Assembly: GCA_030611885.1 (NCBI GenBank)
Contig: JAUWOY010000036.1
Coordinates: 1 to 33,075, forward strand
Direction: 5' to 3'
Length of the DNA stretch: 33,075 nt
Source: Chloroflexota bacterium
GTDB taxonomy: Bacteria; Chloroflexota; Anaerolineae; VGOG01
The translations under genes and the position numbers were made by a program. Numbering within the stretch: the stretch's first letter is position 1; each line of letters starts with the position of its first letter. This document shows positions 543 through 32,004 of the stretch, one piece after another. A model generated the notes under the pieces. It did no database searches. It was not told the DNA's origin and worked only from the letters and a program-made list of their open reading frames with translations.

Positions 543-570
543 CTTTGGAAGTTGGAAGTTGGAGATTGGA
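543..570. repeat. Period-7 tandem repeat (tctttgg aagttgg aagttgg agattgg) directly upstream of the minus-strand start at 539
   Basis: Four consecutive heptamers with consensus WMKTTGG. The same TTGGAAG unit recurs 4x at 9148-9175. Confidence 0.7.
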
Positions 571-10762: not shown

Positions 10763-10801
10763 ATTTTGGACTTTGGGCTTTGGATTTTGGATTTGATTTG
10801 G
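10763..10801. repeat. Period-7 tandem repeat (attttgg actttgg gctttgg attttgg atttgat ttgg) immediately upstream of the folC start (10729)
   Basis: Five or more heptamer units with consensus NYTTTGG. Same unit family as 543-570 and 9148-9175. Confidence 0.7.
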
Positions 10802-12596: not shown

Positions 12597-13490
12597 ATGC
12601 CAGTTCCACAGCGCGCTCGGATGATAGAATTTGACCAGGGCAGTCATGCATACTTTGCCTTTGTCAGGACGAGCTCCAGTCCAGAAGACATTATATCACA
12701 ACTAAACCTGGATCCGCTTCCAAAGGGAGTCATCTGGATTAGCGGTGGAGCCACAGATTTTCCTCTTGAGATCGTAGAGCCAACAGTTGCATTGATTGAG
12801 GCCGTGATCGTGCCCCTTGTGTACGAACATGATTTGCTGGTTGTTGATGGTGGTACAGAGGCTGGGATCATGAAGATTATTGGCGAGGTATTTGAAAGAG
12901 CTAAGTACCACAAGCTGAACATCATCGGTTATGAGGAAGACAAGCTCCAGGGACAGAACGCTAGATCCTGGGATCCCTTGCTGATGGGTTTTGTGCCTGA
13001 ACCGAAGGTCTCCTATCCCGGAGTTGATCGTTCGCCGCCGGACTATGCTCCGCTTGATCCCAACCATATCTACTTTGTCATGGTGCTCGATGCAAAAGAG
13101 TGGGGTCAGGAAGTTGAGTGTATGTTCTCGTTTCTGGGTTATTTGGCTACCCAGAGACAAATCCCAACCATTAACATTGTCGCTAATGGAGGGCGAGTCA
13201 CAATCAAAGAGGCCTATCATGCGGCACAACAAGGGCGACATGTAGTCGTTCTGGAAGGTAGCAAGAGAGCAGCCGAAGTCATTGTCGCTGCGCTAGATGG
13301 AGTATCTGACAGAACCTTGGTCAGTTTGCTCAGAGCATACGGGATTACAACACAGAGGCACGAGGTAGAAGAGACGGTTTACTGGCTCAATAGCATTGCC
13401 AAGTACGACAAGATTACGCGTTTTGATTTCTTATCACGGCCACCTGGGGAGTTGAGAGAAATCATTCTCTCTAAGATGGGCCTAGTGTGA
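12597..13490 (+). CDS. Standalone SLOG/LOG-like Rossmann-fold nucleotide-binding protein, 297 aa
   Basis: The motifs ISGGATDF, LLVVDGGTEAGIMKIIGE and IVANGGRVTIKEAY follow the LOG/SLOG pattern (GGxxG...GGxG...PGGxGTxxE). Assignment by motif memory, not by search. RBS GGGAGGG 4-5 nt upstream. Overlaps the next gene by 4 nt. Confidence 0.5.
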   Translation: MPVPQRARMIEFDQGSHAYFAFVRTSSSPEDIISQLNLDPLPKGVIWISGGATDFPLEIVEPTVALIEAVIVPLVYEHDLLVVDGGTEAGIMKIIGEVFERAKYHKLNIIGYEEDKLQGQNARSWDPLLMGFVPEPKVSYPGVDRSPPDYAPLDPNHIYFVMVLDAKEWGQEVECMFSFLGYLATQRQIPTINIVANGGRVTIKEAYHAAQQGRHVVVLEGSKRAAEVIVAALDGVSDRTLVSLLRAYGITTQRHEVEETVYWLNSIAKYDKITRFDFLSRPPGELREIILSKMGLV

Positions 13491-16402
13491 TTAAGACGGA
13501 CCGCGAGCACGGGAGGACACCAGATATGAATTCAGATGCATCAGATACGCCCAGAACACTTTTAGCATATTTTAGTCACAGCTACCGTCCCAGCGAGAAG
13601 GAGATTAATCTATTCTTCTGGGAATTGTTAAGCAAGCACAGCCTCTACTTCACAGTCGACTCCGAAGAGAATAGAGATAAGCCGATGGACATCTCCTACC
13701 TGGAGTGGATGATGCGACGCTGCGCATGTTTTGTAGCCGTCATTCCGCGCCGCGATGACTCACCGCCATATAACTGTTCTCCCTACCAGGTCTTTGAAAA
13801 CAGTCTGGCCATTCGCGCTAAGAAACCACGTTTGATCTTTGTCGAAGAAGGATTAGACGAAACCATCTTCGGCGTTCAACCTGAAGAAGTCTGTTCCTTT
13901 CGTCGAAGAAGAGAATTCCTTGAGGAAGGCAAAGACGATTTCATGAAGTTTGCGAGTCGGCTAGCTCAACGAGCGCATGCGCTTGCCACTCCAGATTTGG
14001 GCCTAAGGAAGCCAGTTACTCTGTTAGCAGACACCACACAAGGGTCGGCCTACCGTTCGGCTACAGTCAGAAGCATTCGCCAGATAGTGCGTGACCAAGG
14101 GTATTGGTTCCGAACTGTGAACCCCACAGACTTTGAACAGGATTCTTTGTTTCTGCGAACGATTGAAGGTTACAGTATATTGATCTCTGAAGTGCGGCAA
14201 CCTTACTTAGCGCCTGATGTGTTGGGGTTAGTGCATAGCCGATGCGTGCCCACAATTCGCATTTGCCATCTGGAAGAACATGAGAGCGTGGAAGAGGCAC
14301 AGGCAGCGATGCACTTACCGTTCAATGAGCACAAGTGGACTGATCAAGACCGCAGCAGCTGGCCGCTCATATTCAGCAAGTACCAGATTGACGATGATAT
14401 GGAACCAGTCATCTTTTGGAAACAGCCAGAGGAAATGCACGAGAAGGTCAGAGTGCGTTTAAGGAAAATCACCGAAAAACGTGTTGACCTGATCACAGAG
14501 CAAGAAGCACGCGGCTATTTCCTGCGCATAGGCCGCCTATCTGGCCAGATGTTCATCAGCAATGCCAAAGCGCAGAACGACTTCGTTGACAGGCTCAAGC
14601 ACAGCCTGCAGCGAAATGCAGTGGACTGGTTCCATTACAAAGATAAGGACGCAATCCCTATTGGATCGAGCGATTGGCTTTCCGAAATCATTATGGAGAT
14701 CCGGAACTCCACCATTTTTGTCGCCCTAGTTGACTCCAACTACACAGCAAGCGAGTGGTGCATAAGTGAGTTTAGAGAGGCAATGAATTTGTTTCGCAAT
14801 GGTGGCGAGATAGAGATTCATGCCTATGTGCTTGAGGATGGTGCCCAGTTGCCCGCAGAGTTGTCCATGATGCAGGTAGCCTATATCGAGACCTTGAACG
14901 ATACCAGTAGGATTGAGCGGATTGTGGAGAATGCAGTGGCGTTTCTGGAGACTGGAAAACAGGTCCGTTTGCGTCCCAGAGCCCGGACTCAGCTCGTGAA
15001 CTTATTGGCGAAGCTTCCATCGTTTGCTTCGTCCAATGAGCGTAGAACGCTTCTGCAGGACGCTGGATTACCGGCTCGAGTCCTCCAGAAAGTTCGAACA
15101 GAGGCGCAAACGAGTGCGAAAGCGGCTGCTGAGATTGTTGATGACCTAGCAGGATGGGAGCAAGAGCTCAAACTACGAACAAAAGCTCTTGGACTGCTTC
15201 TGTCACGCACAATGGGACTCGTAGATTCAATCGAGGAACAGATATTCTTGGCAGGCATGATCCGAGGCTATAGGCTCATGCCGGACATCAAGCTGCAGCT
15301 TGAAGCCCGTTCGCCTTTACGGGAGCTTGGCTTGGCCTACTTCCACGAGCGGAAGGAGTTAGGAACCTTCGAATCAATTCAAAAGGGATCTCTCGTGGAC
15401 CGCAAGCTGGATCAGCATGAACTCGATGCCAATTTGTATGCTCTATCAGTAAGATCCAGTGCCGAGCAAGACGATTGGCACAAGATGTTACGAATCATTG
15501 GGAAGGGCTTGTTTCACAACAATATCTTTGACGACCTCCTTGAGAATTATAAGAGAGCGTTGGACTCTCTCGGGATTCGCAACGAACAACTTGGGTTCTG
15601 CTTTGCCACTGATGCACCAGGACTGCGCATTCCATTTGAGTGGGCGGTTATTGAAGGTCAGAGGACTCCGTTGTGCTTAAGGCACCCTGTGCGGCGCTTC
15701 TTGGATGGATGTCCTGAACCCAGACCTACGTTACGCACACTGCTTGAAGGAGAAGTTGCCATTCCATTACGCGTGTTGTTGGTAGCCTCCAATACAGGTG
15801 GAATTCCAGAAGTGGAGAATGAAGTTGAAGAGCTCTACTCGATGCTTCGCGACTTGTTTCATCGGGTAGGATGGCCAGAATCCAACATTTGCAGACTGAA
15901 CTCTCAGACAGCCACGGTAGATAGTATTAAATGGCAAATCAGGCATGGGCATTATCATATTCTTCACTTTGCAGGCCACGGGGGCTATGATGATGAAAAG
16001 CCAGTTCTCCAAGTTTATCAAGATGCAAGTACGCAACAGATTGATCAGATCTCTGCAACCATGTTGAGAAGCTGGATCATTGATTCAGACCTCTGCTTCG
16101 TTTACTTGAGCAGTTGTCGCAGTGCATCCACAGAAGCCCTAGAATTAGCTAGTGCAATTCGATACTTTGAGAACGTTGGTCAAGCAATCGTTGAGGCCCG
16201 TGTACCTGAAGTAATCGGTTTTTTCTGGCCGATTGAAGACAATCAAAGCAGGATTCTGGCTACACGATTCTACGAGCAATTCCTGAAAAGCTTTGATGCA
16301 CCTCTGGCCCTATATCACGCGAGGAAGTCTTTTGAAGAAGAAAACCGCATCTGGGCAGCTCCAGTTTTGATTCAACAACTCGACACCCAAAAGAGAAGCT
16401 AG
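13487..16402 (+). CDS. Multidomain TIR(-like) / TIR / helical linker / CHAT caspase-like protease fusion protein, 971 aa
   Basis: Residues about 355-470 (MFISNAKAQNDFVDRLKHSLQRNAVDWFHYKDKD...SEIIMEIRNSTIFVALVDSNYTASEWCISEFREAM) form a canonical TIR domain, including the S-x-WC-x-x-E catalytic-glutamate region. Residues about 25-140 (LLAYFSHSYRP...CACFVAVIPRRDDSPPYNCSPYQVFENSLA) look like a second, more divergent TIR-like domain. The C-terminal about 240 aa have the CHAT His/Cys dyad context (YHILHFAGHGGYDDE ... DLCFVYLSSCRSAS). Confidence 0.7.
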   Translation: MIKTDREHGRTPDMNSDASDTPRTLLAYFSHSYRPSEKEINLFFWELLSKHSLYFTVDSEENRDKPMDISYLEWMMRRCACFVAVIPRRDDSPPYNCSPYQVFENSLAIRAKKPRLIFVEEGLDETIFGVQPEEVCSFRRRREFLEEGKDDFMKFASRLAQRAHALATPDLGLRKPVTLLADTTQGSAYRSATVRSIRQIVRDQGYWFRTVNPTDFEQDSLFLRTIEGYSILISEVRQPYLAPDVLGLVHSRCVPTIRICHLEEHESVEEAQAAMHLPFNEHKWTDQDRSSWPLIFSKYQIDDDMEPVIFWKQPEEMHEKVRVRLRKITEKRVDLITEQEARGYFLRIGRLSGQMFISNAKAQNDFVDRLKHSLQRNAVDWFHYKDKDAIPIGSSDWLSEIIMEIRNSTIFVALVDSNYTASEWCISEFREAMNLFRNGGEIEIHAYVLEDGAQLPAELSMMQVAYIETLNDTSRIERIVENAVAFLETGKQVRLRPRARTQLVNLLAKLPSFASSNERRTLLQDAGLPARVLQKVRTEAQTSAKAAAEIVDDLAGWEQELKLRTKALGLLLSRTMGLVDSIEEQIFLAGMIRGYRLMPDIKLQLEARSPLRELGLAYFHERKELGTFESIQKGSLVDRKLDQHELDANLYALSVRSSAEQDDWHKMLRIIGKGLFHNNIFDDLLENYKRALDSLGIRNEQLGFCFATDAPGLRIPFEWAVIEGQRTPLCLRHPVRRFLDGCPEPRPTLRTLLEGEVAIPLRVLLVASNTGGIPEVENEVEELYSMLRDLFHRVGWPESNICRLNSQTATVDSIKWQIRHGHYHILHFAGHGGYDDEKPVLQVYQDASTQQIDQISATMLRSWIIDSDLCFVYLSSCRSASTEALELASAIRYFENVGQAIVEARVPEVIGFFWPIEDNQSRILATRFYEQFLKSFDAPLALYHARKSFEEENRIWAAPVLIQQLDTQKRS

Positions 16403-16498
16403 GAAGCAAAGAAGATGCTTTGAGAAAGGTTGAGAAACCCGTCCCGCTTCTGAAACTACTTTGTAATGCTTAGGACGAGTTAGCCCGGGAGGTCAACA

Positions 16499-17791
16499 AT
16501 GAAAAAACTAATCGCCCTTGGTGCCTTAGTTCTTGTAATCCTCTCTTACTTCCTGTTTGGGCTCACAGGGTTTGCAATTGGGGCGGCTATTATAGCCGTT
16601 GCTATTCTCTCCTATCGCCTCGCCCGTGAGCCAGGCTTGGCCCGTGCCATACTTCTTGTTACCCTTATCCTTTCATTTGTGATTGGCGGTTTTGTGATCA
16701 GAACTTGGGGACCAAAGCCGACTGGAATCACTAAAGCTGAGGAGATCGCCTTCTTCGTTATCGGAGGGGCGATGGGGCTTATATCCTGGCTATCGGTGCT
16801 CCTTTCTGCATTCTTCTTATGCTCCGAGATAATTCTTGTTTCTCATGGAGGTGATAGGTGGGGATCTTTTGCCTACCTGGTAAGTTCCTTGTTGCTTGAG
16901 CGTGCGGGGGCTCTTGAGATCGTAGATAGAGGTGAAGTGATAACCATAAAATCGAGAGGCTTGCTCGCTCCCTTTAAAGCGATCGGATACGTGATTATCT
17001 ATCATGGAAATGCTGTTGTCTTTGAACGCTTCGGTCGCCTCAGCCAAGTGGCGGGGCCCGGTCTTGTGGTGAAGAGGTCTTTCGAAACGATACGAGCGGT
17101 CGTTGATTTGAGCATGCAAGTGGAGGAAAGAAGGCAAACACTTGTTACCAGAGATGGAATCCCATTGACCACCTATGTAAAAATACTCTTCCAAATAGAT
17201 TCTGGGGGGCGTGCCCCTACGCCTGATGACATGTTTCCACTTTCCGAACCAGCAGTGCTCAATGCAGTATACCTTGTGCCGGATTGGAAGGCATATACCG
17301 TTGAAACGGCCCTTGCCTTGCTCCGCGATATGATATGCACACATTATCTCGACGACGTCTACGCCCCCTTGAAGAAGGGTTCTCGTAAAAGGGCAGGCCT
17401 AGGAACCCATGCACAACTCCTCCAAGATAACCTGCAAACTTCCTTGAGTGCCACAGCGATCGCGTGGGGGGTGAGAATTCACCGGGTGGAACTTGGCATC
17501 GCGGCGCCGCAGGAAATCGAGGAACAAGCCCTGGCCTTCGAAAAGGCGAGAAAAGAGGAGGAACTCGAATACCAAAGATCCAGAGCTGAGAACCGCCGGA
17601 TTAAGCAATTTGTCTCGCAGACTGGAGGAGATGTCACTGATTATGCTCTCCTCCGCTATCTTGAAAGGATTGGGGAATCCGGCATCCTTCCGCCCTCATT
17701 AGACCGGATGCTCCTTGACGCCATGGAAAAGGGAATGTCACGGCCACAGGGGCAAAAGAAGATCAAGGCCAGTGAGGAGGAGGCGGATTGA
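16499..17791 (+). CDS. Membrane protein with N-terminal 4-TM region and SPFH/band-7 (stomatin/flotillin/HflK-like) domain plus C-terminal coiled-coil, 430 aa
   Basis: Four hydrophobic helices in the first about 120 aa. The SPFH core is IVDRGEVITIKSRG...AVVFERFGRLSQVAGPGLVVKRSFETIRAVVDLSMQVEERRQTLVTRDGIPLTTYVKILFQI. Charged helical tail. RBS GGGAGG before the ATG. Confidence 0.6.
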   Translation: MKKLIALGALVLVILSYFLFGLTGFAIGAAIIAVAILSYRLAREPGLARAILLVTLILSFVIGGFVIRTWGPKPTGITKAEEIAFFVIGGAMGLISWLSVLLSAFFLCSEIILVSHGGDRWGSFAYLVSSLLLERAGALEIVDRGEVITIKSRGLLAPFKAIGYVIIYHGNAVVFERFGRLSQVAGPGLVVKRSFETIRAVVDLSMQVEERRQTLVTRDGIPLTTYVKILFQIDSGGRAPTPDDMFPLSEPAVLNAVYLVPDWKAYTVETALALLRDMICTHYLDDVYAPLKKGSRKRAGLGTHAQLLQDNLQTSLSATAIAWGVRIHRVELGIAAPQEIEEQALAFEKARKEEELEYQRSRAENRRIKQFVSQTGGDVTDYALLRYLERIGESGILPPSLDRMLLDAMEKGMSRPQGQKKIKASEEEAD

Positions 17792-20159: not shown

Positions 20160-20684
20160 GTGTTACGATTGAAAGCCCTGTTAGATGCTCCCGTTCTTGT
20201 CCTCAACTTAAACTACGAGCCGCTGAACGTCTGCAACGTCAAGAGGGCTATGGTCTTGATCGTGGTGGGCAAGGCCGACGTTTTGGAGAACAGCCGGGGG
20301 GTCATCCGTACCCCTTCCACCACCTTCCTGTGCCCCTCGGTGATAAAGCTAATCTACATGATCAAGCGGCCTCGCCCCCGGGTGAAGCTCACCAAGAAAG
20401 AGATCTTCCGGCGAGATAACTACACCTGCCAATATTGTGGCCGACAATCAAAGAACTTGACCGTGGATCACATCGTTCCACGCCACAATGGGGGACAGCA
20501 CCATTGGGAAAACCTGGTGAGCGCGTGCCCGGCCTGCAATCATCGAAAGGGCAGCCGTACTCTCCGAGAGGCCCACATGCGGTTGCTGCAGCGTCCCTAC
20601 GAGCCCCGCGCCACCAGCAGTTACCTCTTTGGCCGATACTTGAAAGAAAACGAGGAGTGGCAAGGGTTTATAGAGGGTTGGTGA
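20160..20684 (+). CDS. HNH endonuclease-family protein, 174 aa
   Basis: YTCQYCGRQSKNLTVDHIVPRHNGGQHHWENLVSACPACNHRKG is a classic HNH motif with zinc-ligand cysteines. Confidence 0.75.
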   Translation: MLRLKALLDAPVLVLNLNYEPLNVCNVKRAMVLIVVGKADVLENSRGVIRTPSTTFLCPSVIKLIYMIKRPRPRVKLTKKEIFRRDNYTCQYCGRQSKNLTVDHIVPRHNGGQHHWENLVSACPACNHRKGSRTLREAHMRLLQRPYEPRATSSYLFGRYLKENEEWQGFIEGW

Positions 20685-23183: not shown

Positions 23184-24248
23184 ATGATAGTCATCAATGG
23201 CTCTTATGGCGAGGGAGGCGGCCAGGTCTTGCGCACTTCCCTGACCCTTTCCGCCCTCCTGGGTCAACCCATGCGCATCGAGAACATCCGTGCCCAGCGC
23301 CGCAGACCCGGCCTGCAGGCCCAACACCTCACCGGGGTCTGGGCCATAGCTCAAATCTGCGACGCCGAGCTAGAGGGCGCAGATTTCGGTTCCCTGAACC
23401 TGACTTTCAAACCTCGATCGTCGCCTCGAGCGGGGGAATACTCTTTCGACGTAGCCCAGGCCCGCAAAGGCGGCAGCGCGGGCGCAACCAGCCTCGTCTC
23501 CCAAACCCTGCTGCTGCCCCTGGCCTTCGCCCCCGGCCAATCCCGCCTGACCATACGCGGCGGCACCCACGTGGCTTGGAGCCCCCCCTTTCACTACCTC
23601 AAGCACGTCTACCTGCCCACCCTGGCCCGCATGGGACTGGACGCGAGCGCGGAGATCGAGCGGTGGGGCTGGTACCCGATAGGTGGGGGGGAGATGACGG
23701 CTGCGATCAGGGGCCGACGGGATAGCCAGCTCTCTAGCCTGGATTTGGTTGAACGGGGCGAATTGAAGCGCCTGTGGGGCATCTCTGCCACTTCCAACCT
23801 CCCTCCTCACATCAGCCAGAGGCAAAAGAAGCGCGCGGAGGGATACCTGCAAAAGCGTGGTTTCGCCCCCCAGATCGAGATCGTAGATGCTCCCTCGCCC
23901 GGCAAAGGCACTGCCGTCTTCCTCGCGGCCGAGTACGAGCACGCAGTGGCCGGCTTCTCCTCTTTGGGAAAGCGGGGCAAGCCCGCCGAGAAAGTGGCCG
24001 AGGAGGCTTGCCGCGAATTCATCGCCTATCACCAGAGCAACGCCTGCCTGGACAAGCACCTGGCTGACCAGTTGATTCTCCCCCTGGCCCTGGCCCCTGG
24101 TCCATCAGCTTTCACCACCTGCAAAATCACCCCACACCTGTTGACCAACGTTTGGGTGGTAGAGCAATTTTTGGATGTGAGGTTTGAGATAGAGGGCGAG
24201 GAGGGAGAAAGGGGCAAAGTGCAAGTTTCTGCGGTAAGTGATTTGTAA
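23184..24248 (+). CDS. rtcA: RNA 3-prime-terminal phosphate cyclase, 354 aa
   Basis: MIVINGSYGEGGGQVLRTSLTLSALLGQPMRIENIRAQRRRPGLQAQHL is the RtcA N-terminal signature. The listed ORF start at 23151 is upstream of the RBS; the ATG at 23184 is preferred. Confidence 0.85.
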   Translation: MIVINGSYGEGGGQVLRTSLTLSALLGQPMRIENIRAQRRRPGLQAQHLTGVWAIAQICDAELEGADFGSLNLTFKPRSSPRAGEYSFDVAQARKGGSAGATSLVSQTLLLPLAFAPGQSRLTIRGGTHVAWSPPFHYLKHVYLPTLARMGLDASAEIERWGWYPIGGGEMTAAIRGRRDSQLSSLDLVERGELKRLWGISATSNLPPHISQRQKKRAEGYLQKRGFAPQIEIVDAPSPGKGTAVFLAAEYEHAVAGFSSLGKRGKPAEKVAEEACREFIAYHQSNACLDKHLADQLILPLALAPGPSAFTTCKITPHLLTNVWVVEQFLDVRFEIEGEEGERGKVQVSAVSDL

Positions 24249-24396
24249 GCGTCCAGCCTCAGTGCGATCACGCCGGTTGAGTAGACCGCAGGTCGTATCG
24301 AAACCAAGTGATCGCACGGGGAGGCAGCCAAACGTGGTTTCGATACGCCCCTTTCGGGGCTACTCAACCGACGTTTGGCCTACCCCCTGGACGCAC
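24249..24396. repeat. Left 148-bp inverted repeat (IR-L), a highly structured palindrome-rich element
   Basis: The reverse complement matches 29715-29861 at about 93% identity (about 10 mismatches). Internal perfect stems: cgtatcgaaacca / tggtttcgatacg (13 bp), ccaaacgt / acgtttgg, ggttgagtag / ctactcaacc, cccc-tttc-gggg. The listed ORFs 24029..24367(-) and 29743..29997(+) translate this same repeat (MSSPERGVSKPRLAA...) and are artefacts. Confidence 0.9.
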
Positions 24397-24404
24397 ACGG
24401 TGAT

Positions 24405-24433
24405 TTGACCAATGGTTGACTTTGATGTACAAT
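24405..24433 (+). promoter_or_regulatory. Near-consensus sigma70 promoter (-35 TTGACC, 17-nt spacer, -10 TACAAT) driving the RAMP cassette
   Basis: ttgacc at 24405-24410 and tacaat at 24428-24433. RBS AAGGAG 6 nt before ATG 24516. Confidence 0.55.
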
Positions 24434-24515
24434 AGCAACCAAGACACCGGTCAGCGAGGCCGTGTCGCATTTTACCCTCACTCAATTCAAAATAGAGTTG
24501 CGAAAGGAGACTGCC

Positions 24516-27500
24516 ATGATTCTGAAAGGTAAGCTTTATGCAGAATCCCCGATTTACAGGGGAAATGCACGCAAGACCCTCTTCACGAGGGATGGAGACG
24601 GGACTCACCGCCTGGTCTCTCTGGCCGGGGAAATCGCGGGGACGGCCGAGTCCTTGATGGACGCCTTCATCGGCCAATCGCGCCGGGGCAGGAACATCGG
24701 CCTGCTGAATCGAATGTGGCTGCGGTTATACGACTCCCCCCTGCCGCAGGGGCTCATTACCAAAGTAGAGTGCCAGTTGCAAGAAAAGAGCTATCCTCGC
24801 GATCACTTCTTTGGCTTGCGCATGGGCATAAAGTTGGACGAGGATCGCTGGGCTGCGGAAGCGAACGCAAATTACAAGATGGAAACGTTGTTCCGCAACT
24901 CCGTCTTCGATTTCAGCCTGTCTGTAAATGAGTCGGCACTACAGCAAGGTGAAAACACAGCCCGACTGTACTACATCTTGCAAGAGCTCGCCGAAGGGCG
25001 ATTCTGGTTTGGGGCTGGCAAGAGCAAAGGCCTGGGGCGCGTTCGCCTTGAAATGGACCTGTCGCCTTTGATCTCCGAAACGCCTCCCCGCCTCCGCCCT
25101 GGAACCAATCACCTGAGGATGTTCTTGACCTTCAACGCCACGAATCCCGTTTTGGTCGGCTGGAACTGGGGCAAGGTAGACCCCGATGTGCCTTCCTTCG
25201 CCGCTATCGAAGGCCGCCTGTTGGTAGGGGCAATGCGCGATCTGCCAGACCCCATCCGCGAGCGGCTGGAGATGGGGTTGACGGGACCGATCCTCAGCCC
25301 GGCAGACTGGAAGCGCAAGTTCGCCGACTATCTTCCGAGAGTCATCGCCATTTGGTTGAGGGAGCAATCTATCGGAGAAGTCGAGGTTTGGGTTTTGCCA
25401 GCCCAAGCCGCGGCCAAGCTGGGCAAAGGGAAGTACGCGCTTTCCAAGAAAATACTCGCTCAGATTCAACCTCTGGTCGAGCAGCCTTTCTCCAGCAAAG
25501 AAACGGCTGATGCTGCGTTCAGGGAAGCCCTGGGGGAAAAGGCCAACATGGCCAAGCGTATCCTCAAGGTCATGGTGCAACAGCGCCAGACCCGCGAACA
25601 GCTCGATCGCGAAGCCTGGCTGGAAGTCGCCAATGGGCTGGGCCTGGATGTCACCCTGGCCGACCGTCTCGCCGAACAGATTCAAAGCGAAAAGGCCCTG
25701 ATAAAGGTTCTGACCCCCGCGTGCCAAAAGGTCCTCCCCCGGCTCTACCAACAGGTGGATCAACAGGTCAATCTGCTGCAGAGCGACGCCTGGGTGGACG
25801 CGGAGATCGCAGCCCGCGAGGAACACGCCCAGATCAAGAACATGTTGCTCCAAGGCAAGATAGGCGAGCGTCAGTGGGGCAAGCCGGATCTGGTTCCCGA
25901 AGGTATCAGTCCCGCCACGTGGAGGGAATTCGTTGCCGCCCACCGCCGCGTGCAATTCCGCTACATGCTGAATGCCAGGAACTTGAACAAGAGCATCACC
26001 AACGACGAGAACATGATCGCCTTCCTCAAGGCCTATCGTGATCGCACTCGCCAGGAGCTGGCCCAGCCCCACCACATTGACTTTCGAGCCGGCGGCCCGT
26101 CCAATCGAGAGATTTCCCGCAAGTATGGCAAGCCCTACGACACGGTGTTCATGCGCATGTTGGCCTGGTCGCCGTCCTCGCAAGAGCAAGGAGCCTGGGA
26201 GATCTACGTCCCCGGCAGCACGATCAAGGGGGCTTTTAGAAAACGTGCTTCGCAGGTGTTGAAAACCCTGTGGGGTGAATCGCGCCAGACCACCGAGATG
26301 TTGAATCTTCTCTTTGGCGCTCAAGGACAGCGGGGGCTGGTCTTTTTCTCCGACGCCTATCTCACCGATCCGTACGACCCGGAACGGGCCTGGTGCTCTA
26401 TGGACGGGGTCAAGATGAACCCCCGAACAGGGCAGCCGATAGAGGCCGCCAAGCACGACTACCTCTTCGCCTATGGCGACCAGCTCGCCTTCCAACTCCA
26501 GTTGGATATTCAGGACATCGAAGAGCAGGATATGGAGGCGATGTCCCTCCTGGCTCACCTGCTCCACGATTTCAAAAGAGGTGACATCCCCCTGGGCGGC
26601 GAAAAGACCAGCGGTTTCGGTTGGGTCAAGGCGGATGTGTCCAGGCTCACCTGGCTGACGGCGGACCCGGACGGTGTGGGAGAGAAGCTGTTCGGGAAGC
26701 AGACGCTGAGCCAGGATGGCCTGTGGCAGAGGCTGGACTTGGAGGGCGAGGAGGCCGCCAATGCCTTGCAGATCATCCATCCTATAGCTCCCGAGCAAGA
26801 AGTCTCCTCAACTCCGCCCAGGGCCAGAGCCGGCTTTGTCTCGCACCGGGCTTTCGGCGGCCATTGCGGCACGCTGGTGGTGGAAGCAGAGGTCTTGACC
26901 CCTCTCAACGTACGAGAGAGCGGCGAACCGTCCTTCGTAGCCGCCCTGGCGGATGGCCCTGTCAATGGCTGGGACTTCTTCGCCATGGCTCCCCCCGAAG
27001 CCGCCCAGCGTGGTCCCAACAAAGTCTACGCGCTCCCCAGCCGGAGCATCAAAGGAATGTTACGCCACATCTACTCCATCGCCAGCGATTCCAGCGAGCC
27101 GAGCCCCGACATCAGCCGCTTGAACCCAACAGACGGCTTGTTCGGCTGGGTGGGAAGGGGGCCAAACCAGGCCCTCATGGGGCGCCTGTCCTTCAGCTTT
27201 GGCCCGTTCGAGGAACCCGAGCTGGCCTGGTTCAAAGTGCCCTACCCCTACGGCGAGTGGCAGTACACCGGGGAGCAATGGAAACACTTGCCGGGGAGTT
27301 CCGCCGCCCAGATGCTCATCGGCAAGACGTGGCGGGTTTTCCCCCACGCCCCGTTGGCCCCCATCGTCAAACAGGTAGACGATTTCCAGCCCGATACGTT
27401 CCAGGCCCGCTACTTCAGGGCCATACTGCCTGGCGCCCGCGCCCGCTTCACGATCCGCTTCTGGAACCTCGAGGAGCAGGAGTTGCAGAGGTTGATATGG

Positions 27501-27737
27501 TCTGTGGTGCTGGAGCCGGGGCTCGCTCACAAGATGGGGAACAACCGCTACCTCGGCTTTGGCAGCCTGCGCCTGCACATTCTCCCCGACAGCTTTATGA
27601 TTGACTGGGCCAAGCGGTACGCCGACGAGCCTGAGGAGAGCTGGCAGTTGCCCATCCAGGTTGACGAATGGATCGAGCCCGAGGTGGTTTATCATCACAG
27701 AGCACTACAAAGGGCACTGAATGCTAAGCAGCTTTGA
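24516..27737 (+). CDS. Multi-RAMP fusion protein: Cas7-like domain 1, helical Cas11-like insert, Cas7-like domain 2, Cas7-like domain 3 (gRAMP/Cas7-11-like layout), 1073 aa
   Basis: Three RAMP signatures. (1) res about 1-180, G-rich loop FWFGAGKSKGLGRVRL. (2) res about 530-750, IYVPGSTIKGAFRKRA, LFGAQGQRGLVFFSDAYL and G-loop GGEKTSGFGWVKADV. (3) res about 780-1060, VYALPSRSIKGMLRHIYSIAS, GLFGWVG and G-loop GNNRYLGFGSLRLHI. A roughly 330-aa helical region sits between RAMP1 and RAMP2, in the position occupied by Cas11 in Cas7-11. No HD or GGDD (Cas10) motifs. The ATG at 24516 after AAGGAG is preferred over the listed 24462. Confidence 0.7.
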   Translation: MILKGKLYAESPIYRGNARKTLFTRDGDGTHRLVSLAGEIAGTAESLMDAFIGQSRRGRNIGLLNRMWLRLYDSPLPQGLITKVECQLQEKSYPRDHFFGLRMGIKLDEDRWAAEANANYKMETLFRNSVFDFSLSVNESALQQGENTARLYYILQELAEGRFWFGAGKSKGLGRVRLEMDLSPLISETPPRLRPGTNHLRMFLTFNATNPVLVGWNWGKVDPDVPSFAAIEGRLLVGAMRDLPDPIRERLEMGLTGPILSPADWKRKFADYLPRVIAIWLREQSIGEVEVWVLPAQAAAKLGKGKYALSKKILAQIQPLVEQPFSSKETADAAFREALGEKANMAKRILKVMVQQRQTREQLDREAWLEVANGLGLDVTLADRLAEQIQSEKALIKVLTPACQKVLPRLYQQVDQQVNLLQSDAWVDAEIAAREEHAQIKNMLLQGKIGERQWGKPDLVPEGISPATWREFVAAHRRVQFRYMLNARNLNKSITNDENMIAFLKAYRDRTRQELAQPHHIDFRAGGPSNREISRKYGKPYDTVFMRMLAWSPSSQEQGAWEIYVPGSTIKGAFRKRASQVLKTLWGESRQTTEMLNLLFGAQGQRGLVFFSDAYLTDPYDPERAWCSMDGVKMNPRTGQPIEAAKHDYLFAYGDQLAFQLQLDIQDIEEQDMEAMSLLAHLLHDFKRGDIPLGGEKTSGFGWVKADVSRLTWLTADPDGVGEKLFGKQTLSQDGLWQRLDLEGEEAANALQIIHPIAPEQEVSSTPPRARAGFVSHRAFGGHCGTLVVEAEVLTPLNVRESGEPSFVAALADGPVNGWDFFAMAPPEAAQRGPNKVYALPSRSIKGMLRHIYSIASDSSEPSPDISRLNPTDGLFGWVGRGPNQALMGRLSFSFGPFEEPELAWFKVPYPYGEWQYTGEQWKHLPGSSAAQMLIGKTWRVFPHAPLAPIVKQVDDFQPDTFQARYFRAILPGARARFTIRFWNLEEQELQRLIWSVVLEPGLAHKMGNNRYLGFGSLRLHILPDSFMIDWAKRYADEPEESWQLPIQVDEWIEPEVVYHHRALQRALNAKQL

Positions 27738-28599
27738 TTGGCTGCGCCGCAGTCGGACCGGCGCCGAGTTGTTAGCTACCCTGGAATATCTTACCACCAA
27801 GCCCGATCTCTTCCCTACCGGGGAAGAGATCGGGCTGCCTCATTCAGCCCTGAACGGCCCCTGCCAACGATGCTGGATCTACCCCCGGCTGCCTTTCCAG
27901 GATTACTGCGCACCTTGCCAGGCTATTCTGACCAGAGCCAGCAAGCTGGGCCACATCTCTTACCAATCCATCGTCATCTGGGGTTTTGTCAATTACTTGT
28001 CGAGGCTGCTTCGTATGGGTGAGGGATTTGACGCCCATCACATCTTTGGCGCCTATGCCCACGACGAGAATCATTTTCTGCTGGTGATACCCCGACACGA
28101 GTTAAAGCCCTGGCTGCGAGAACTGGGCATCTACCACGGGGCTGACCTGAAGGGAATAATCCAAGTCTTTCCCACCATGGGAGCAGCAAGAGGAATTGGT
28201 ATGGGGGATATCCTCTGTAGAGCCGTTCATCACGAGGCGCGTTTTTCTATGGACCGATTGCGCGTTCGGTTCTTCTCTTCGCCCTATCAACTCCTGAGAG
28301 CCCACGAACGCGACCGAGAGGGACTGCTCACCTTTGAGATCTCCGAATTCCTGAGCCTGCTAGAAATGGCAGCCGTCTTTCGGACCATCCTGCGCCCCGA
28401 AGAACAAGAGTCGCTTCACAAGCTGCTGGATTTGGAGGATGCCAGCGAGGAGCAGTTTTACTGGGGAAGATTCCTGGGGTTCTTGAGTCAGGAAGCCAAA
28501 GACATGCTGAACGCCTGGAGAATTCGACAGTGGCCTGAGAGTCGAATCAAACTGTTATACGAACTCGTTGATTATGTGGCCTTTTATCAAACCCATTAA
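27721..28599 (+). CDS. Hypothetical protein with N-terminal C-x2-C...C-x2-C zinc-ribbon (292 aa), cassette accessory
   Basis: CQRCWIYPRLPFQDYCAPCQ near the N-terminus. The rest is predicted helical. Overlaps the upstream gene by 17 nt and the downstream gene by 32 nt, suggesting an operon. No known Cas or Csx family recognised. Confidence 0.4.
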   Translation: MLSSFDWLRRSRTGAELLATLEYLTTKPDLFPTGEEIGLPHSALNGPCQRCWIYPRLPFQDYCAPCQAILTRASKLGHISYQSIVIWGFVNYLSRLLRMGEGFDAHHIFGAYAHDENHFLLVIPRHELKPWLRELGIYHGADLKGIIQVFPTMGAARGIGMGDILCRAVHHEARFSMDRLRVRFFSSPYQLLRAHERDREGLLTFEISEFLSLLEMAAVFRTILRPEEQESLHKLLDLEDASEEQFYWGRFLGFLSQEAKDMLNAWRIRQWPESRIKLLYELVDYVAFYQTH

Positions 28600-29593
28600 A
28601 CTCATCCGTTACCTGTTGGTGTGGCGGGTCAATAGCTCTTTGGTCTGGCTGCCGAGGTGTCTATCCACCGAGCTATCCCTGACCCTGGGAACCATGATTG
28701 CCAATCGTTTGCCAACTCGTGAGGCCGGTCCCTGGCGCAAAGCTCTGGCTCCCTGGGATGAATGTGGTGGAATCGCCCTCGTGGGGAAGAAAAAGCCCGA
28801 TAGGATACCAGAAGTATCATGGCCGATGGAAGCGGTATTGTTTGCCTATCCGGGCAAGCGGACCTATGGGCAGGGAGAGTTGATCCTGTGGGAACTCAAG
28901 CTGATGGGAGAGAGCGCAGACCACGGACTTTTCCTGGAAGTTATCCTGCCGGCTATGGAGGAAGCGGGGAGTGCTTCTGAGCTGCGATGGCAGCACCGAA
29001 ACGTCCTCTGGGGGCAATTCGACATCCAGGCAGTTTACGCAGCGCGGGGGCAGCAGTGGGAGCCTATAGTGAGTGACGGGCGACTGGACTTGAACTATCG
29101 TGCAAGCCCCACTCAGTGGGCTGAAGGATTGGATTTTGACTCAAAATCAGAGCGAATATTCGACTGTCTGACCTGGATAACTCCGTTTGATTTCAGCGAC
29201 GCAGACCAGATTGGCCGACGAGGCCATCGGCGGACAACCTCGCGAAAGAGAATACCGCCTCACCAAGTGCCAACCTTGCAGAGCATGCTAGAGTCCCTGA
29301 CAGCCCGGATGAGTTCGTTGCTACCGGGCAAACACCACACAGCCGACGATGTGTGGGATGTCTTGAGCGCGGCGGAACAGGCTTCCTTCCAAGCCATTCT
29401 GGAACAGGCTTCCCACATCCCCGTTCATCATAAAAAGCTTAAACGATCTCCCAAGAGCTGGCCAGGGCGCTGGATAGGCACGCAAACCTTTGCCTCCATC
29501 CCGCACTCCATCATCCCCTATCTTGAGCTGGCCTCCATACTCCACATCGGAAAACAGACCCACTTTGGATGCGGCACCTTTGCGATAAGTTGA
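28568..29593 (+). CDS. Cas6-like RAMP protein (C-terminal glycine-rich loop), 341 aa; start possibly at internal ATG 28694
   Basis: The C-terminal IPYLELASILHIGKQTHFGCGTFAI matches the Cas6/RAMP G-rich loop (G-x5-G-phi-G). Ferredoxin-like segments (AVLFAYPGKRTYGQGELILWELKLMGES...LFLEVILPAMEEAG). Lacks the PGSSIKG-type Cas7 motif. Confidence 0.5.
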   Translation: MIMWPFIKPIKLIRYLLVWRVNSSLVWLPRCLSTELSLTLGTMIANRLPTREAGPWRKALAPWDECGGIALVGKKKPDRIPEVSWPMEAVLFAYPGKRTYGQGELILWELKLMGESADHGLFLEVILPAMEEAGSASELRWQHRNVLWGQFDIQAVYAARGQQWEPIVSDGRLDLNYRASPTQWAEGLDFDSKSERIFDCLTWITPFDFSDADQIGRRGHRRTTSRKRIPPHQVPTLQSMLESLTARMSSLLPGKHHTADDVWDVLSAAEQASFQAILEQASHIPVHHKKLKRSPKSWPGRWIGTQTFASIPHSIIPYLELASILHIGKQTHFGCGTFAIS

Positions 29594-29714
29594 TTATGTC
29601 ACCCCCTCCACTGCCCGCCCCAATTCCCCGCCCCTGACCAATTCTCAATCTTCTCCTTCATCAAGAAAACCTCCTCATTGAGGCTACAGTGATCCTCCGA
29701 GACAAAAACAAGTA

Positions 29715-29861
29715 TGCGTTCAGGGGGTAGGCCAAACGTCGGTTGAGTAGCCCCGAGAGGGGCGTATCGAAACCACGTTTGGCCGCCCCTCCGTGTGATC
29801 ACTTGGTTTCGATACGACCCGCGGTCTACTCAACCGGCGTGATCGCCCTGAGGCTGAACGC
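29715..29861. repeat. Right 147-bp inverted repeat (IR-R), inverted copy of IR-L
   Basis: See IR-L. Internal stems: ggccaaacgt / acgtttggcc (10 bp), cgtatcgaaacca / tggtttcgatacg (13 bp), cggttgagtag / ctactcaaccg, cccc-gaga-gggg. The stems are interleaved, so alternative or pseudoknot-like folds are possible. It lies between the convergent Cas6-like gene and the rplI operon. Confidence 0.9.
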
Positions 29862-29935
29862 TTACAAAAACAATACCTCGCCTGGGGCTACCACGACGAG
29901 GTATTTGGTCCTATATCAACTGAATCACGAAGTCA

Positions 29936-30961: not shown

Positions 30962-31011
30962 AGCGACTGGCGAATTCGGGTTCGCTAGCAATTTTATGGG
31001 AGGGAAAGTTG

Positions 31012-32004
31012 ATGGGCGATCTTGGTCAGTTGCTACGGGAAGCACGCGAACAAAAGGGGGTGTCCCTGGAAAAGGTCGAGGAGGCCACACGAATACGGCA
31101 GAAGTTTCTCCAGGCTCTGGAGGAGGGGGACTATGGGGCCTTGCCCGCCGAAACTTACGTCAAAGGGTTCCTGCGCACCTACGCCGTGTATCTGGAGCTC
31201 GACCCCGAAGAATTGATAGCCCTCTACGAAGGCCGGGAGAACGAGGGCAAGGCAGCGCTGCCACAGCCTGGCTTCTTCCAGCCGATGGACCTCTCCCTGG
31301 CCGCGCCCTCCTGGCTGACGCCCGACCTGGTGATTGGCGCTCTGCTCATCGTGGTGCTCCTAGCCTTTGGGTGCTGGGCTACCTGGCACTACCTTCCCCC
31401 CACAATCAAGACCCAGTTGCTATTCTGGCGAGCCGCCGCTACCGTCACCCCATCGCCCACTGCTACCACCTCCGCCGTCCTGCCCCGCCTCACCCCGACA
31501 GCAGCGCCCACCACGACACCCACCACGATGCCTACCGCCACGCCCACCGAAATGCCCACCGCAGTGCCCACTGCCACACCTACCGCCATGCCCACCGTCG
31601 CAGTCGTCGTCGAGCCCACCTCCACCCCCACCAGCGTCCCTCCCTCCACTCCCACCAGCACCCCCACCAGCGCCGCCCCCACTGACACCCCCACGCCCAG
31701 GGTCTCCACCGGCATCGAAGTCGAGTTGAGAATCGTCGAGTATGCCTGGCTGCGGGTTATCGTGGACGGGGAGGAGGTTTTCATAGGCTCTCTGGAAGCG
31801 GGCGCCACGCGCACTTTTCGCGGGCGAGAGAGCGTCGCCCTGCGCTGCGGCAACGCCGGCGGCGTGGAAGCCGCCGTCAACGGCGAACCCCTGGGCCTGC
31901 TGGGGGAAAGGGGCCAGGTGGTGGACATAGAATGGCTGGCGGAGGGAGTCACCCCCACGCCTGCCACGCCTGAGGCTACAGCAACTCCCACCGCCACTCC
32001 CTGA
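31012..32004 (+). CDS. rodZ: RodZ-like cytoskeleton-associated protein: XRE-type HTH, single TM, Pro/Thr-rich linker, C-terminal DUF4115-like domain, 330 aa
   Basis: N-terminal LGQLLREAREQKGVSLEKVEEATRIRQKFLQALEEGDY HTH. TM helix LVIGALLIVVLLAFGCWATW. About 90-aa low-complexity TPT/PTA linker. C-terminal IEVELRIVEYAWLRVIVDGEEVF...ALRCGNAGGVEAAVNGEPLG. The antisense ORFs 31389..32201 and 31420..32124 are shadows of the linker. Confidence 0.7.
   Translation: MGDLGQLLREAREQKGVSLEKVEEATRIRQKFLQALEEGDYGALPAETYVKGFLRTYAVYLELDPEELIALYEGRENEGKAALPQPGFFQPMDLSLAAPSWLTPDLVIGALLIVVLLAFGCWATWHYLPPTIKTQLLFWRAAATVTPSPTATTSAVLPRLTPTAAPTTTPTTMPTATPTEMPTAVPTATPTAMPTVAVVVEPTSTPTSVPPSTPTSTPTSAAPTDTPTPRVSTGIEVELRIVEYAWLRVIVDGEEVFIGSLEAGATRTFRGRESVALRCGNAGGVEAAVNGEPLGLLGERGQVVDIEWLAEGVTPTPATPEATATPTATP

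What the first reader, a model, noticed from the sequence alone, without database searches (positions are those of the whole stretch)
24397..29714. Array-less, Cas10-less RAMP cassette: triple-Cas7 + Cas11-like fusion, Zn-ribbon protein and Cas6-like protein, bracketed by 148-bp inverted repeats
Gene 24516..27737 carries three unmistakable Cas7-type RAMP domains. The PGS(T/S)IKG motifs, the LFG...FFSDAY motif and three glycine-rich G-x-G-F/L-G loops are all visible in the translation. A roughly 330-aa helical insert sits after the first RAMP, mirroring the Cas7.1-Cas11-Cas7.2-Cas7.3 order of type III-E Cas7-11/gRAMP, but with one Cas7 fewer and a smaller size. It is followed by an unknown Zn-ribbon protein and a Cas6-like protein with a C-terminal G-rich loop. 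Within the window there is no Cas10 (no HD or GGDD), no cas1/cas2, no CRISPR array and no recognisable type III-E partner. The unit has its own near-consensus promoter and sits as a discrete block between rtcA and the rplI operon, delimited by the inverted repeats. It is either a compact type III-E/III-D-like effector module whose array is elsewhere, or a CRISPR-independent RAMP-based system. The latter would be undescribed as far as I know.
Basis: partly seen in the sequence, partly recalled or inferred. Interest (0 to 1): 0.9.

Follow-up and report, generated by a model that had tools for sequence, protein, structure and literature searches.

The report
Known type III-I CRISPR-Cas operon
This is an ordinary member of the recently described type III-I CRISPR-Cas subtype (Cas7-11i, a shrunken Cas10 and Cas6), and the "inverted repeats" around it are two separate insertions of a small IS66-type mobile element, not the borders of a mobile cassette.

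Summary

The inverted repeat is real (157 nt, 94%), but it is two copies of a 154-nt IS66-type MITE. Each copy has GTAAGCG-type ends and its own 8-bp target duplication. Both are absent from intact empty sites in a 96%-identical relative that keeps the same rtcA–cassette–rplI synteny.

There is no CRISPR array in the window. There is also none beside 71 related III-I operons (about 744 kb of flanks), and no cas1/cas2 was found within 4 kb of the operon in the 67 loci scanned. Lacking an array in cis therefore looks like a property of the subtype, presumably served by arrays elsewhere in the genome. That point is untested and is the only open question left.

The parts
24405..24433 (+). Sigma-70-type promoter of the operon (TTGACC-17-TACAAT)
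   Evidence: 10 of 12 matches. The sequence is conserved in close relatives L003-L008, L030 and L038. An AAGGAG ribosome-binding site lies 8 nt before the ATG at 24516.
24516..27737 (+). cas7-11i: type III-I gRAMP effector, three Cas7 domains with a helical (Cas11-type) insert after the first
27721..28599 (+). cas10i: reduced Cas10 (large-subunit remnant) with a Zn-ribbon, no GGDD motif and no HD domain
28574..29593 (+). cas6i: Cas6-family pre-crRNA endoribonuclease. Start is ATG 28574 (339 aa, as called in the Logan contig) or TTG 28568.
   Evidence: NF049959 scores 322.6 bits (cut-off 160) on aa 4-209. Pfam CRISPR_Cas6 and PADLOC Cas6 hit the C-terminal half. The G-rich loop G328-F338 is conserved.
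24245..24398 (+). MITE-L: 154-nt IS66-type non-autonomous element. TIRs are GTAAGCGTCCAG and CTGGACGCACAC. TSD copies are 24237-24244 (AGTGATTT) and 24399-24406 (GGTGATTT).
   Evidence: The element is absent from the empty site in L030. IS66 features are documented. It folds into two hairpins closed by an outer stem, z about -6. It replaces the last 3 codons of rtcA and supplies a new TAA stop.
29712..29865 (-). MITE-R: second copy of the same 154-nt element in the opposite orientation. TSD is AAAAACAA at 29704-29711 and 29866-29873.
   Evidence: The L030 empty site GAGACAAAAACAATACCTCG is intact. The TSD is an exact 8-bp duplication and differs from that of MITE-L.

Best explanation
The region is a type III-I CRISPR-Cas effector operon, cas7-11i-cas10i-cas6i, sitting at a conserved chromosomal position between rtcA and rplI in an Anaerolineae-type genome.

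Shown here:
- All three proteins are full-length members of the curated III-I families.
- The middle protein has a Cas10 fold but lacks the cyclase motif.
- The large protein is a fusion of several Cas7 domains, and is structurally closest to III-D subunits and next closest to III-E Cas7-11.
- The three genes overlap and are conserved in this order in essentially all 80 related loci.
- No array and no adaptation genes lie next to the operon, here or in the relatives examined.

Inferred mechanism:
1. One promoter drives a translationally coupled tricistronic mRNA.
2. Cas6i cuts pre-crRNA transcribed from CRISPR arrays elsewhere in the genome.
3. One crRNA is laid along the three Cas7 domains of Cas7-11i, with Cas10i capping the complex as a non-enzymatic large subunit.
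4. Complementary RNA is cleaved at up to three sites by the conserved aspartates (candidates D26/D28, D542, D820).
5. With no Palm/GGDD and no HD domain there should be no cyclic-oligoadenylate signalling and no DNase activity.

The two 'inverted repeat' arms are unrelated to this mechanism. They are two independent insertions of a 154-nt IS66-type MITE into the AT-rich borders of the operon.
For: - NCBIfam: Cas7-11i 1942.8 bits against a cut-off of 800, Cas10i 472 against 175, Cas6i 322.6 against 160.
- Relatives: 168 found, 80 loci fetched, including the paper's reference Desulfonema magnum locus L042. Operon order is conserved: Cas10i found in 76 sequences and Cas6i in 74 (counts include the window itself).
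- Conserved Asp, Cys and G-loop residues.
- MITEs: empty sites plus separate 8-bp TSDs; a third copy in L178; IS66 hallmarks, namely a GTAAGCG terminus and 8-bp direct repeats.
Against: - No crRNA source was found. There are no arrays in the window or beside 71 related operons, so the guide-RNA step is entirely inferred.
- No experimental work on III-I exists in the searchable literature.
- The effector model has only moderate confidence (pLDDT 67.8).
- The catalytic Asp positions are assigned by analogy with Csm3/Cmr4. They were not mapped on a solved structure.
Confidence: 0.88

Rival explanations
1. A CRISPR-independent RAMP system. The operon would work without any CRISPR array, for example with a non-CRISPR guide RNA or a house-keeping RNA substrate processed by Cas6i.
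For: - No arrays beside 71 operons. 41 of them have at least 2 kb on both sides and 20 have at least 5 kb on both sides.
- No Cas1, Cas2 or other cas genes among 298 flank ORFs from 67 loci.
- Unusually strong conservation for a defence gene: at least 60% identity across phyla, with 26% of positions at least 97% conserved.
- Stable chromosomal synteny among house-keeping genes in the closest relatives.
Against: - A dedicated, co-conserved Cas6 with an intact G-rich loop argues for repeat-type RNA processing.
- Many type III loci are known to borrow crRNAs in trans, and the paper suggests the same for the array-less III-G subtype.
- Desulfonema magnum carries III-I together with a III-E system whose crRNA structure is solved.
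- No conserved non-coding element that could serve as a cis-encoded guide was found next to the operon outside close relatives.
Confidence: 0.08
2. A MITE-bracketed composite transposon. The two inverted 154-nt elements would mobilise the cas cassette as a unit, as the first reader's 'discrete block' implied.
For: - The only two copies of the element in the 33 kb window flank the cassette, in inverted orientation.
- An independent Logan assembly broke exactly at both copies, giving a 5,315-bp contig.
- Integrons flanked by MITEs are a known phenomenon. This last point is from my own memory and was not checked here.
Against: - Each copy has its own matching 8-bp duplication, (A/G)GTGATTT on the left and AAAAACAA on the right. 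A unit that had transposed whole would instead share one duplication at its outer ends.
- L030 (96% identical) and five more relatives have the cassette at the same rtcA-rplI position without either element.
- None of the other 79 III-I loci carries the MITE at its borders.
Confidence: 0.03
3. A divergent type III-E (Cas7-11e/gRAMP-Craspase-like) system, with a protease partner encoded elsewhere in the window (the TIR-EAD8-CHAT protein at 13487-16402).
For: - A CHAT-domain protein lies about 8 kb upstream.
Against: - The III-E model NF041225 scores 52 bits against a cut-off of 700.
- There are three Cas7 domains, not four, and a Cas10 remnant is present.
- The CHAT protein co-occurs with the operon only in the syntenic relative (1 of 80 loci) and is paired with a SLOG protein instead.
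- The paper infers that III-I arose independently from III-D.
Confidence: 0.01

Closest known systems
Type III-I CRISPR-Cas (Cas7-11i, Cas10i, Cas6i; Makarova et al., Nat Microbiol 2025, PMC12669027). Reference locus: Desulfonema magnum WP_207677910/WP_207677911.
   Same: All three proteins match the curated family models over their full length. They share the gene order, the three-Cas7-plus-helical-insert architecture, the reduced Cas10 without a cyclase motif, the conserved Asp residues and the Chloroflexota host range. The effector is 66% identical to the D. magnum protein (L042).
   Different: Nothing substantive. This copy additionally has two IS66-type MITEs at its borders. The left one abuts the -35 box and clips 3 codons off rtcA.
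Type III-E Cas7-11e / gRAMP (Craspase), e.g. PDB 7wah, 7y80, 8d9g
   Same: A single-protein fusion of Cas7 domains with an inserted Cas11-type domain. It is predicted to be a crRNA-guided RNase that cuts at fixed intervals. It is structurally similar over about 500 residues.
   Different: III-E has four Cas7 domains plus a large insertion (about 1,300-1,800 aa), no Cas10, and TPR-CHAT/Csx30/Csx31 partners. Sequence similarity is limited to about 70 aa of the last Cas7 domain, and the III-E HMM is far below cut-off. The paper infers an independent origin.
Type III-D (III-D2) effector complex, PDB 8s9t (Cas7-2x, TIGR03986 RAMP, Cas10)
   Different: III-D is a multi-subunit complex with a full-length Cas10. 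Here the Cas7 and Cas11 parts are fused into one polypeptide and Cas10 has lost its N-terminal half.
IS66-family MITEs
   Same: The terminal inverted repeat begins GTAAGCG (compare the ISPsk01 IR GTAAGCGTCCGGCG), the target duplications are 8 bp, there is no coding capacity, and multiple copies exist.
   Different: The interior is built from two inverted copies of a hairpin module (GTTGAGTAG-stem-loop-CGTATCGAAAC) that is far more widespread on its own than the MITE is.

Membership tests
Type III-I CRISPR-Cas | Effector belongs to the Cas7-11i family over its full length | tested here: met
   NF049957 scores 1942.8 bits against a cut-off of 800, aligning aa 1-1073 to model positions 1-1076.
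Type III-I CRISPR-Cas | Effector contains three fused Cas7 (RAMP) domains | tested here: met
Type III-I CRISPR-Cas | Cas11 domain inserted after the first Cas7 domain | tested here: inconclusive
Type III-I CRISPR-Cas | Extremely diverged Cas10 lacking the N-terminal polymerase/cyclase domain, recognisable only by structure | tested here: met
Type III-I CRISPR-Cas | Cyclase catalytic motif (GGDD) disrupted, and no HD nuclease domain | tested here: met
   No GGDD or GGDE occurs in the translation. The only acidic residues conserved at 97% or more are D6, E16 and D261. No HD-domain Pfam hit was found.
Type III-I CRISPR-Cas | Conserved aspartate in each Cas7 domain (predicted RNase sites) | tested here: met
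   D26/D28, D542 (also D522 and D613) and D820 are at least 97% conserved in 79 sequences. Assignment to the catalytic loop is by analogy only.
Type III-I CRISPR-Cas | Associated Cas6 | tested here: met
   NF049959 scores 322.6 bits against 160. Pfam CRISPR_Cas6 matches at 2.8e-7. Cas6i was found in 74 sequences including the window itself.
Type III-I CRISPR-Cas | Works with crRNA from a CRISPR array | tested here: inconclusive
   No array in the window or beside 71 related operons. Whole genomes could not be scanned with these tools.
Type III-E (Cas7-11e / gRAMP) | Effector matches the Cas7-11e family model | tested here: not met
   NF041225 scores 52.1 bits against a cut-off of 700, covering only about 60 aa.
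Type III-E (Cas7-11e / gRAMP) | No Cas10, with TPR-CHAT (Csx29) and Csx30/31 partners in the locus | tested here: not met
   A Cas10 remnant is present. No recurrent fourth gene was found in 80 loci. The CHAT protein of the window co-occurs in 1 of 80 loci.
IS66-family MITE | Terminal inverted repeats beginning GTAAGCG | tested here: met
   The ends are GTAAGCGTCCAG and, in reverse complement, GTGTGCGTCCAG for MITE-L, and GTAAGCGTTCAG and GTATGCGTTCAG for MITE-R. The IS66 hallmark is documented in PMC11946415 and PMC12888890.
IS66-family MITE | 8-bp target-site duplication, with an empty site in a relative | tested here: met
   The duplications are AGTGATTT/GGTGATTT (7 of 8 matching) and AAAAACAA/AAAAACAA (8 of 8). 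L030 has single, uninterrupted copies of both sites.
IS66-family MITE | Short, non-coding and multi-copy | tested here: met
   The element is 154 nt. There are two copies in the window and a 94% copy in metagenome contig L178. The Logan assembly broke at both copies.
Composite transposon carrying the cas cassette | One shared target duplication at the outer ends of the whole unit, and the unit absent from the homologous site in relatives | tested here: not met
   The outer flanks differ, and each MITE has its own duplication. The cassette is present at the same site without MITEs in L030 and L003-L007.

The most novel reading that the evidence does not exclude
Type III-I operons may be a stand-alone RNA-guided module that never carries its own array or adaptation genes. 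They are strongly conserved across phyla. They might therefore be loaded with guides from a non-canonical source, or serve a conserved non-defence RNA-targeting role, rather than simply borrowing crRNAs from co-resident CRISPR loci. The uniform absence of arrays in cis (0 of 71 operons) is not discussed in the parts of the defining paper that I could read.
Probability: 0.08. Interest if true: 0.8.

Novelty: already known. Interest (0 to 1): 0.25.

Why it matters
For this window it matters little, because it is a typical member of a subtype catalogued in 2025 and already covered by NCBI's annotation models. Two things have residual value. First, III-I has no published experimental characterisation in the searchable literature, so the source of its crRNA and its actual activity remain open. 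The survey here (no array in about 744 kb of flanks beside 71 operons; no adaptation gene within 4 kb in 67 loci scanned) sharpens that question. Second, the MITE analysis is a clean worked example showing that inverted repeats bracketing a gene cassette need not mark a mobile unit.

Tried and rejected
1. I suspected that the hairpin module inside the repeat arms (GTTGAGTAG-stem-loop-CGTATCGAAAC) was a degenerate CRISPR repeat that Cas6i could use. I rejected this. In more than 120 metagenome contigs it occurs singly, as inverted pairs, or in head-to-tail runs at 37-44 nt spacing, which leaves no room for spacers. It is absent from 78 of the other 80 III-I loci. Rfam gives no CRISPR-DR or ribozyme hit.

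2. Apparent arrays in L042 and L052 from my k-mer detector turned out to be plain tandem repeats or LRR-type coding repeats.

3. A functional link between RtcA (RNA cyclase) and the cassette is rejected. RtcA co-occurs only in the 7 closest syntenic loci.

4. A link to the upstream TIR-EAD8-CHAT protein, as a Craspase-like partner, is rejected. It co-occurs in 1 of 80 loci.

5. I searched the operon flanks for a conserved non-coding guide-like element. Only close relatives share sequence there, mainly the promoter. Sensitivity was limited because this was blastn only.

6. The supplements of the III-I paper that are held as text contain no mention of III-I, so I could not learn what the authors say about arrays.

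7. Sequence search of Cas10i against the PDB returned only a spurious viral glycoprotein hit at E 0.002.
Full report
**Observation**

The region holds three co-directional ORFs with overlapping stop and start codons: 24516-27737 (1073 aa), 27721-28599 (292 aa) and 28568/28574-29593 (341/339 aa). An inverted repeat brackets them, with arms at 24242-24398 and 29712-29868. The whole 33-kb window has no CRISPR-like periodic repeat and no Rfam family hit. Pfam annotation of the other ORFs shows house-keeping genes (enolase, Lon, Mur ligase, glycosyltransferases, ComF-like, RtcA, L9), a SLOG plus TIR-EAD8-CHAT gene pair, and no other cas gene.

**Identity of the three proteins**

NCBIfam matches all three end to end, far above the curated cut-offs.

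| Protein | NCBIfam model | Bits | Cut-off | Coverage |
|---|---|---|---|---|
| 1073 aa | NF049957, type III-I gRAMP effector Cas7-11i | 1942.8 | 800 | aa 1-1073 on model 1-1076 |
| 292 aa | NF049958, Cas10i | 472.2 | 175 | full length |
| 341 aa | NF049959, Cas6 of type III-I | 322.6 | 160 | aa 4-209 |

- The type III-E model (NF041225) scores only 52 bits against a cut-off of 700.
- Pfam and PADLOC place RAMP/Csm3/Cas7_IIId hits in three separate parts of the large protein, and Cas6 hits on the C-terminal half of the third protein.
- Subtype III-I was defined by Makarova et al. (Nat Microbiol 2025, PMC12669027). Its features are a Cas7-11-like effector with three Cas7 domains and a Cas11 domain, apparently evolved from III-D independently of III-E. 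[quoted passage not shown] Each Cas7 domain keeps a conserved aspartate, which suggests RNA cleavage. The subtype occurs in more than 160 genomes, mostly Thermodesulfobacteriota and Chloroflexota.
- No other paper in the library mentions Cas7-11i or subtype III-I, so I found no experimental work.

**Independent structural tests**

- I aligned Cas10i with 43 database homologs. There were 621 hits at E ≤ 1e-5, and every source that gives a name calls them 'hypothetical protein'.
- The AlphaFold2 model is good, with pLDDT 84.4 and pTM 0.83.
- A sequence profile of the family finds no Cas10 in the PDB.
- The protein has an invariant C48/C51/C63/C66 Zn-ribbon and no GGDD motif.
- The effector model has moderate confidence (pLDDT 67.8). 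The low-confidence stretches are the loops expected to contact RNA, and the helical domain at about aa 233-515 is confident.
- By sequence, solved structures match only the last Cas7 domain (Cas7-11e) or the second and third (III-D2).
- The Cas11 nature of the insert was not verified specifically.

**Family survey**

- A scan of 185,579 species genomes found 168 relatives. The 80 loci kept are nearly all full length (a few truncated by contig ends) at 60-96% identity. Most come from Anaerolineae/Chloroflexota and Desulfobacterota MAGs. They include the paper's Desulfonema magnum locus (L042) and a 96% relative (L030).
- The gene order cas7-11i, cas10i, cas6i, with overlapping genes, is kept wherever the contig extends far enough.
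- No other gene family recurs beyond the closest syntenic relatives.
- In Cas7-11i, 279 of 1073 positions are at least 97% conserved. These include D26/D28, D542 and D820, which lie just upstream of the PGS-IKG-type helices of the three Cas7 domains.

**Arrays**

- My k-mer array detector flagged only L042 and L052. Both are plain tandem repeats or LRR-type coding repeats.
- A two-copy mini-array search was also negative.
- 71 related loci carry the whole operon (72 counting the window). Across those 72 the flanks sum to about 744 kb. Among the 71, 41 have at least 2 kb on both sides and 20 have at least 5 kb on both sides. None has an array.
- PADLOC scans of 298 flank ORFs within 4 kb of the operon in 67 loci found no Cas1, Cas2, Cas3, Cas5, Cas7, Cas8 or Cas10, only one Cas4-like nuclease.
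- No non-coding flank element is shared beyond close relatives.
- The lack of an array here is therefore the norm for III-I, not a peculiarity of this locus.
- The paper's main text does not comment on this for III-I. For the array-less III-G subtype it proposes recruitment of crRNA in trans.

**The inverted repeats**

- L030, L003, L004, L005, L006 and L007 share the rtcA–cassette–rplI synteny with the window.
- Relative to L030, the window has two extra 154-nt segments: 24245-24398 and 29712-29865.
- Each segment is flanked by its own 8-bp duplication of a sequence that occurs once in L030. The left pair is AGTGATTT/GGTGATTT and the right pair is AAAAACAA/AAAAACAA.
- The ends are 12-bp inverted repeats beginning GTAAGCG.
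- IS66-family elements are characterised by IRs starting GTAAGCG and by 8-bp direct repeats (PMC11946415). A published IS66 IR reads GTAAGCGTCCGGCG (PMC12888890).
- A third copy, 94% identical, lies in an unrelated metagenome contig (L178), with the same ends and an imperfect 8-bp duplication.
- An independent Logan assembly of the exact same protein produced a 5,315-bp contig that ends at both elements, as expected for multi-copy repeats.
- The arms are therefore two independent IS66-type MITE insertions. The cassette was there first and has not moved as a unit.
- The left MITE landed in the last three codons of rtcA. RtcA ends ...SDLTNG* in L030 and ...SDL* here, with the stop codon supplied by the MITE. 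It also sits immediately upstream of the -35 box of the cas promoter, and the duplication regenerates the first bases of that box.

**The hairpin module**

- Each MITE contains two inverted copies of GTTGAGTAG-[GC-rich stem-loop]-CGTATCGAAAC.
- Because this resembles a Cas6-type repeat, I tested that idea. It fails.
There are 123 different covarying stem-loops among 179 copies.
- It is arranged singly, in inverted pairs, or in tandem at 37-44 nt, never in a repeat-spacer arrangement.
- It is absent from the other III-I loci except one unrelated copy in L024.
- It is an unexplained REP-like motif and is not part of the CRISPR system.

**Mechanism**

- Shown: family membership, operon structure, Cas10 fold without cyclase motif, conserved Asp residues, and no array or adaptation genes in cis.
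- Inferred, from established type III, III-D and III-E biology and from the paper's AlphaFold3 model:
  1. Cas6i matures crRNAs from arrays elsewhere in the genome.
  2. Cas7-11i binds one crRNA along its three Cas7 domains.
  3. Cas10i acts as a structural large subunit.
  4. Complementary RNA is cut by the Cas7 aspartates.
  5. No cOA signalling or HD DNase activity is expected.

**Verdict**

The entity is an already described subtype, it is not Cas10-less, and it is not delimited by the repeats. The remaining open question is where III-I gets its guides. That question applies to the whole subtype rather than to this window.

Noticed in passing
window 12597-17791 (+): There is a SLOG (LSDAT_prok) protein at 12597-13490. 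Its stop overlaps the start of a 971-aa TIR + EAD8 + CHAT protein at 13487-16402, which is followed by an SPFH/Band7 protein at 16499-17791. This looks like a separate conflict or defence gene pair. PADLOC 2.0 has no model for it. It co-occurs with the III-I operon only in the syntenic relative.
   Followed up: partly
window 24275-24369 and 29741-29835; metagenome loci L082-L201 (e.g. L159 1364-1555): The hairpin module CGnTG-GTTGAGTAG-[variable GC-rich stem-loop]-CGTATCGAAAC-C is widespread in metagenomes (more than 120 contigs). Its flanks are invariant and its stems covary freely. It occurs singly, in inverted pairs, or in tandem at about 37 nt. The GTAG directly 5' of the hairpin recalls REP elements. 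It matches no Rfam family and its function is unknown.
   Followed up: partly
window 24237-24410: MITE-L inserted into the last three codons of rtcA, so the protein ends SDL* instead of SDLTNG* with the stop codon donated by the MITE. It also lies directly against the -35 hexamer of the cas operon promoter. This separates the promoter from whatever lay upstream by 162 bp (the 154-nt element plus the 8-bp duplication).
   Followed up: yes
window 545-563, 9148-9220, 9961-9997, 10765-10795; also L042 56-531, L035 12342-, L045 5214-: Short runs of heptanucleotide tandem repeats, such as (TTGGAAG)n, (GACGCTT)n, (CGTGATT)n and (TTTGGAC)n, lie in intergenic DNA. Similar 7-nt repeats occur in several unrelated III-I-bearing genomes. 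They are reminiscent of the STRR repeats of filamentous cyanobacteria. That comparison is from my memory and was not tested.
   Followed up: no
L001 (Logan SRR12623521 contig, 5315 bp), corresponding to about window 24360-29674: An independent short-read assembly containing the identical Cas7-11i protein ends at both MITEs. This shows how these repeats fragment assemblies and can make a cassette look like an isolated unit.
   Followed up: yes
window 28568-29593: The NCBIfam Cas6i model NF049959 (207 positions) covers only the N-terminal 60% or so of this roughly 340-aa protein family. The C-terminal RRM with the G-rich loop is detected only by the Pfam and PADLOC Cas6 models.
   Followed up: no
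window 20160-20684 (+): There is a stand-alone 174-aa HNH endonuclease with weak similarity to PtuB (Septu) and PDC-M01B models. No partner gene is evident. It is conserved in the syntenic relatives.
   Followed up: no
window 31009-32004 (+): This ORF encodes a long Pro/Thr-rich low-complexity stretch (PTPT and ATPT repeats). That stretch produces the 12- and 36-nt tandem repeats at 31519-31671.
   Followed up: no
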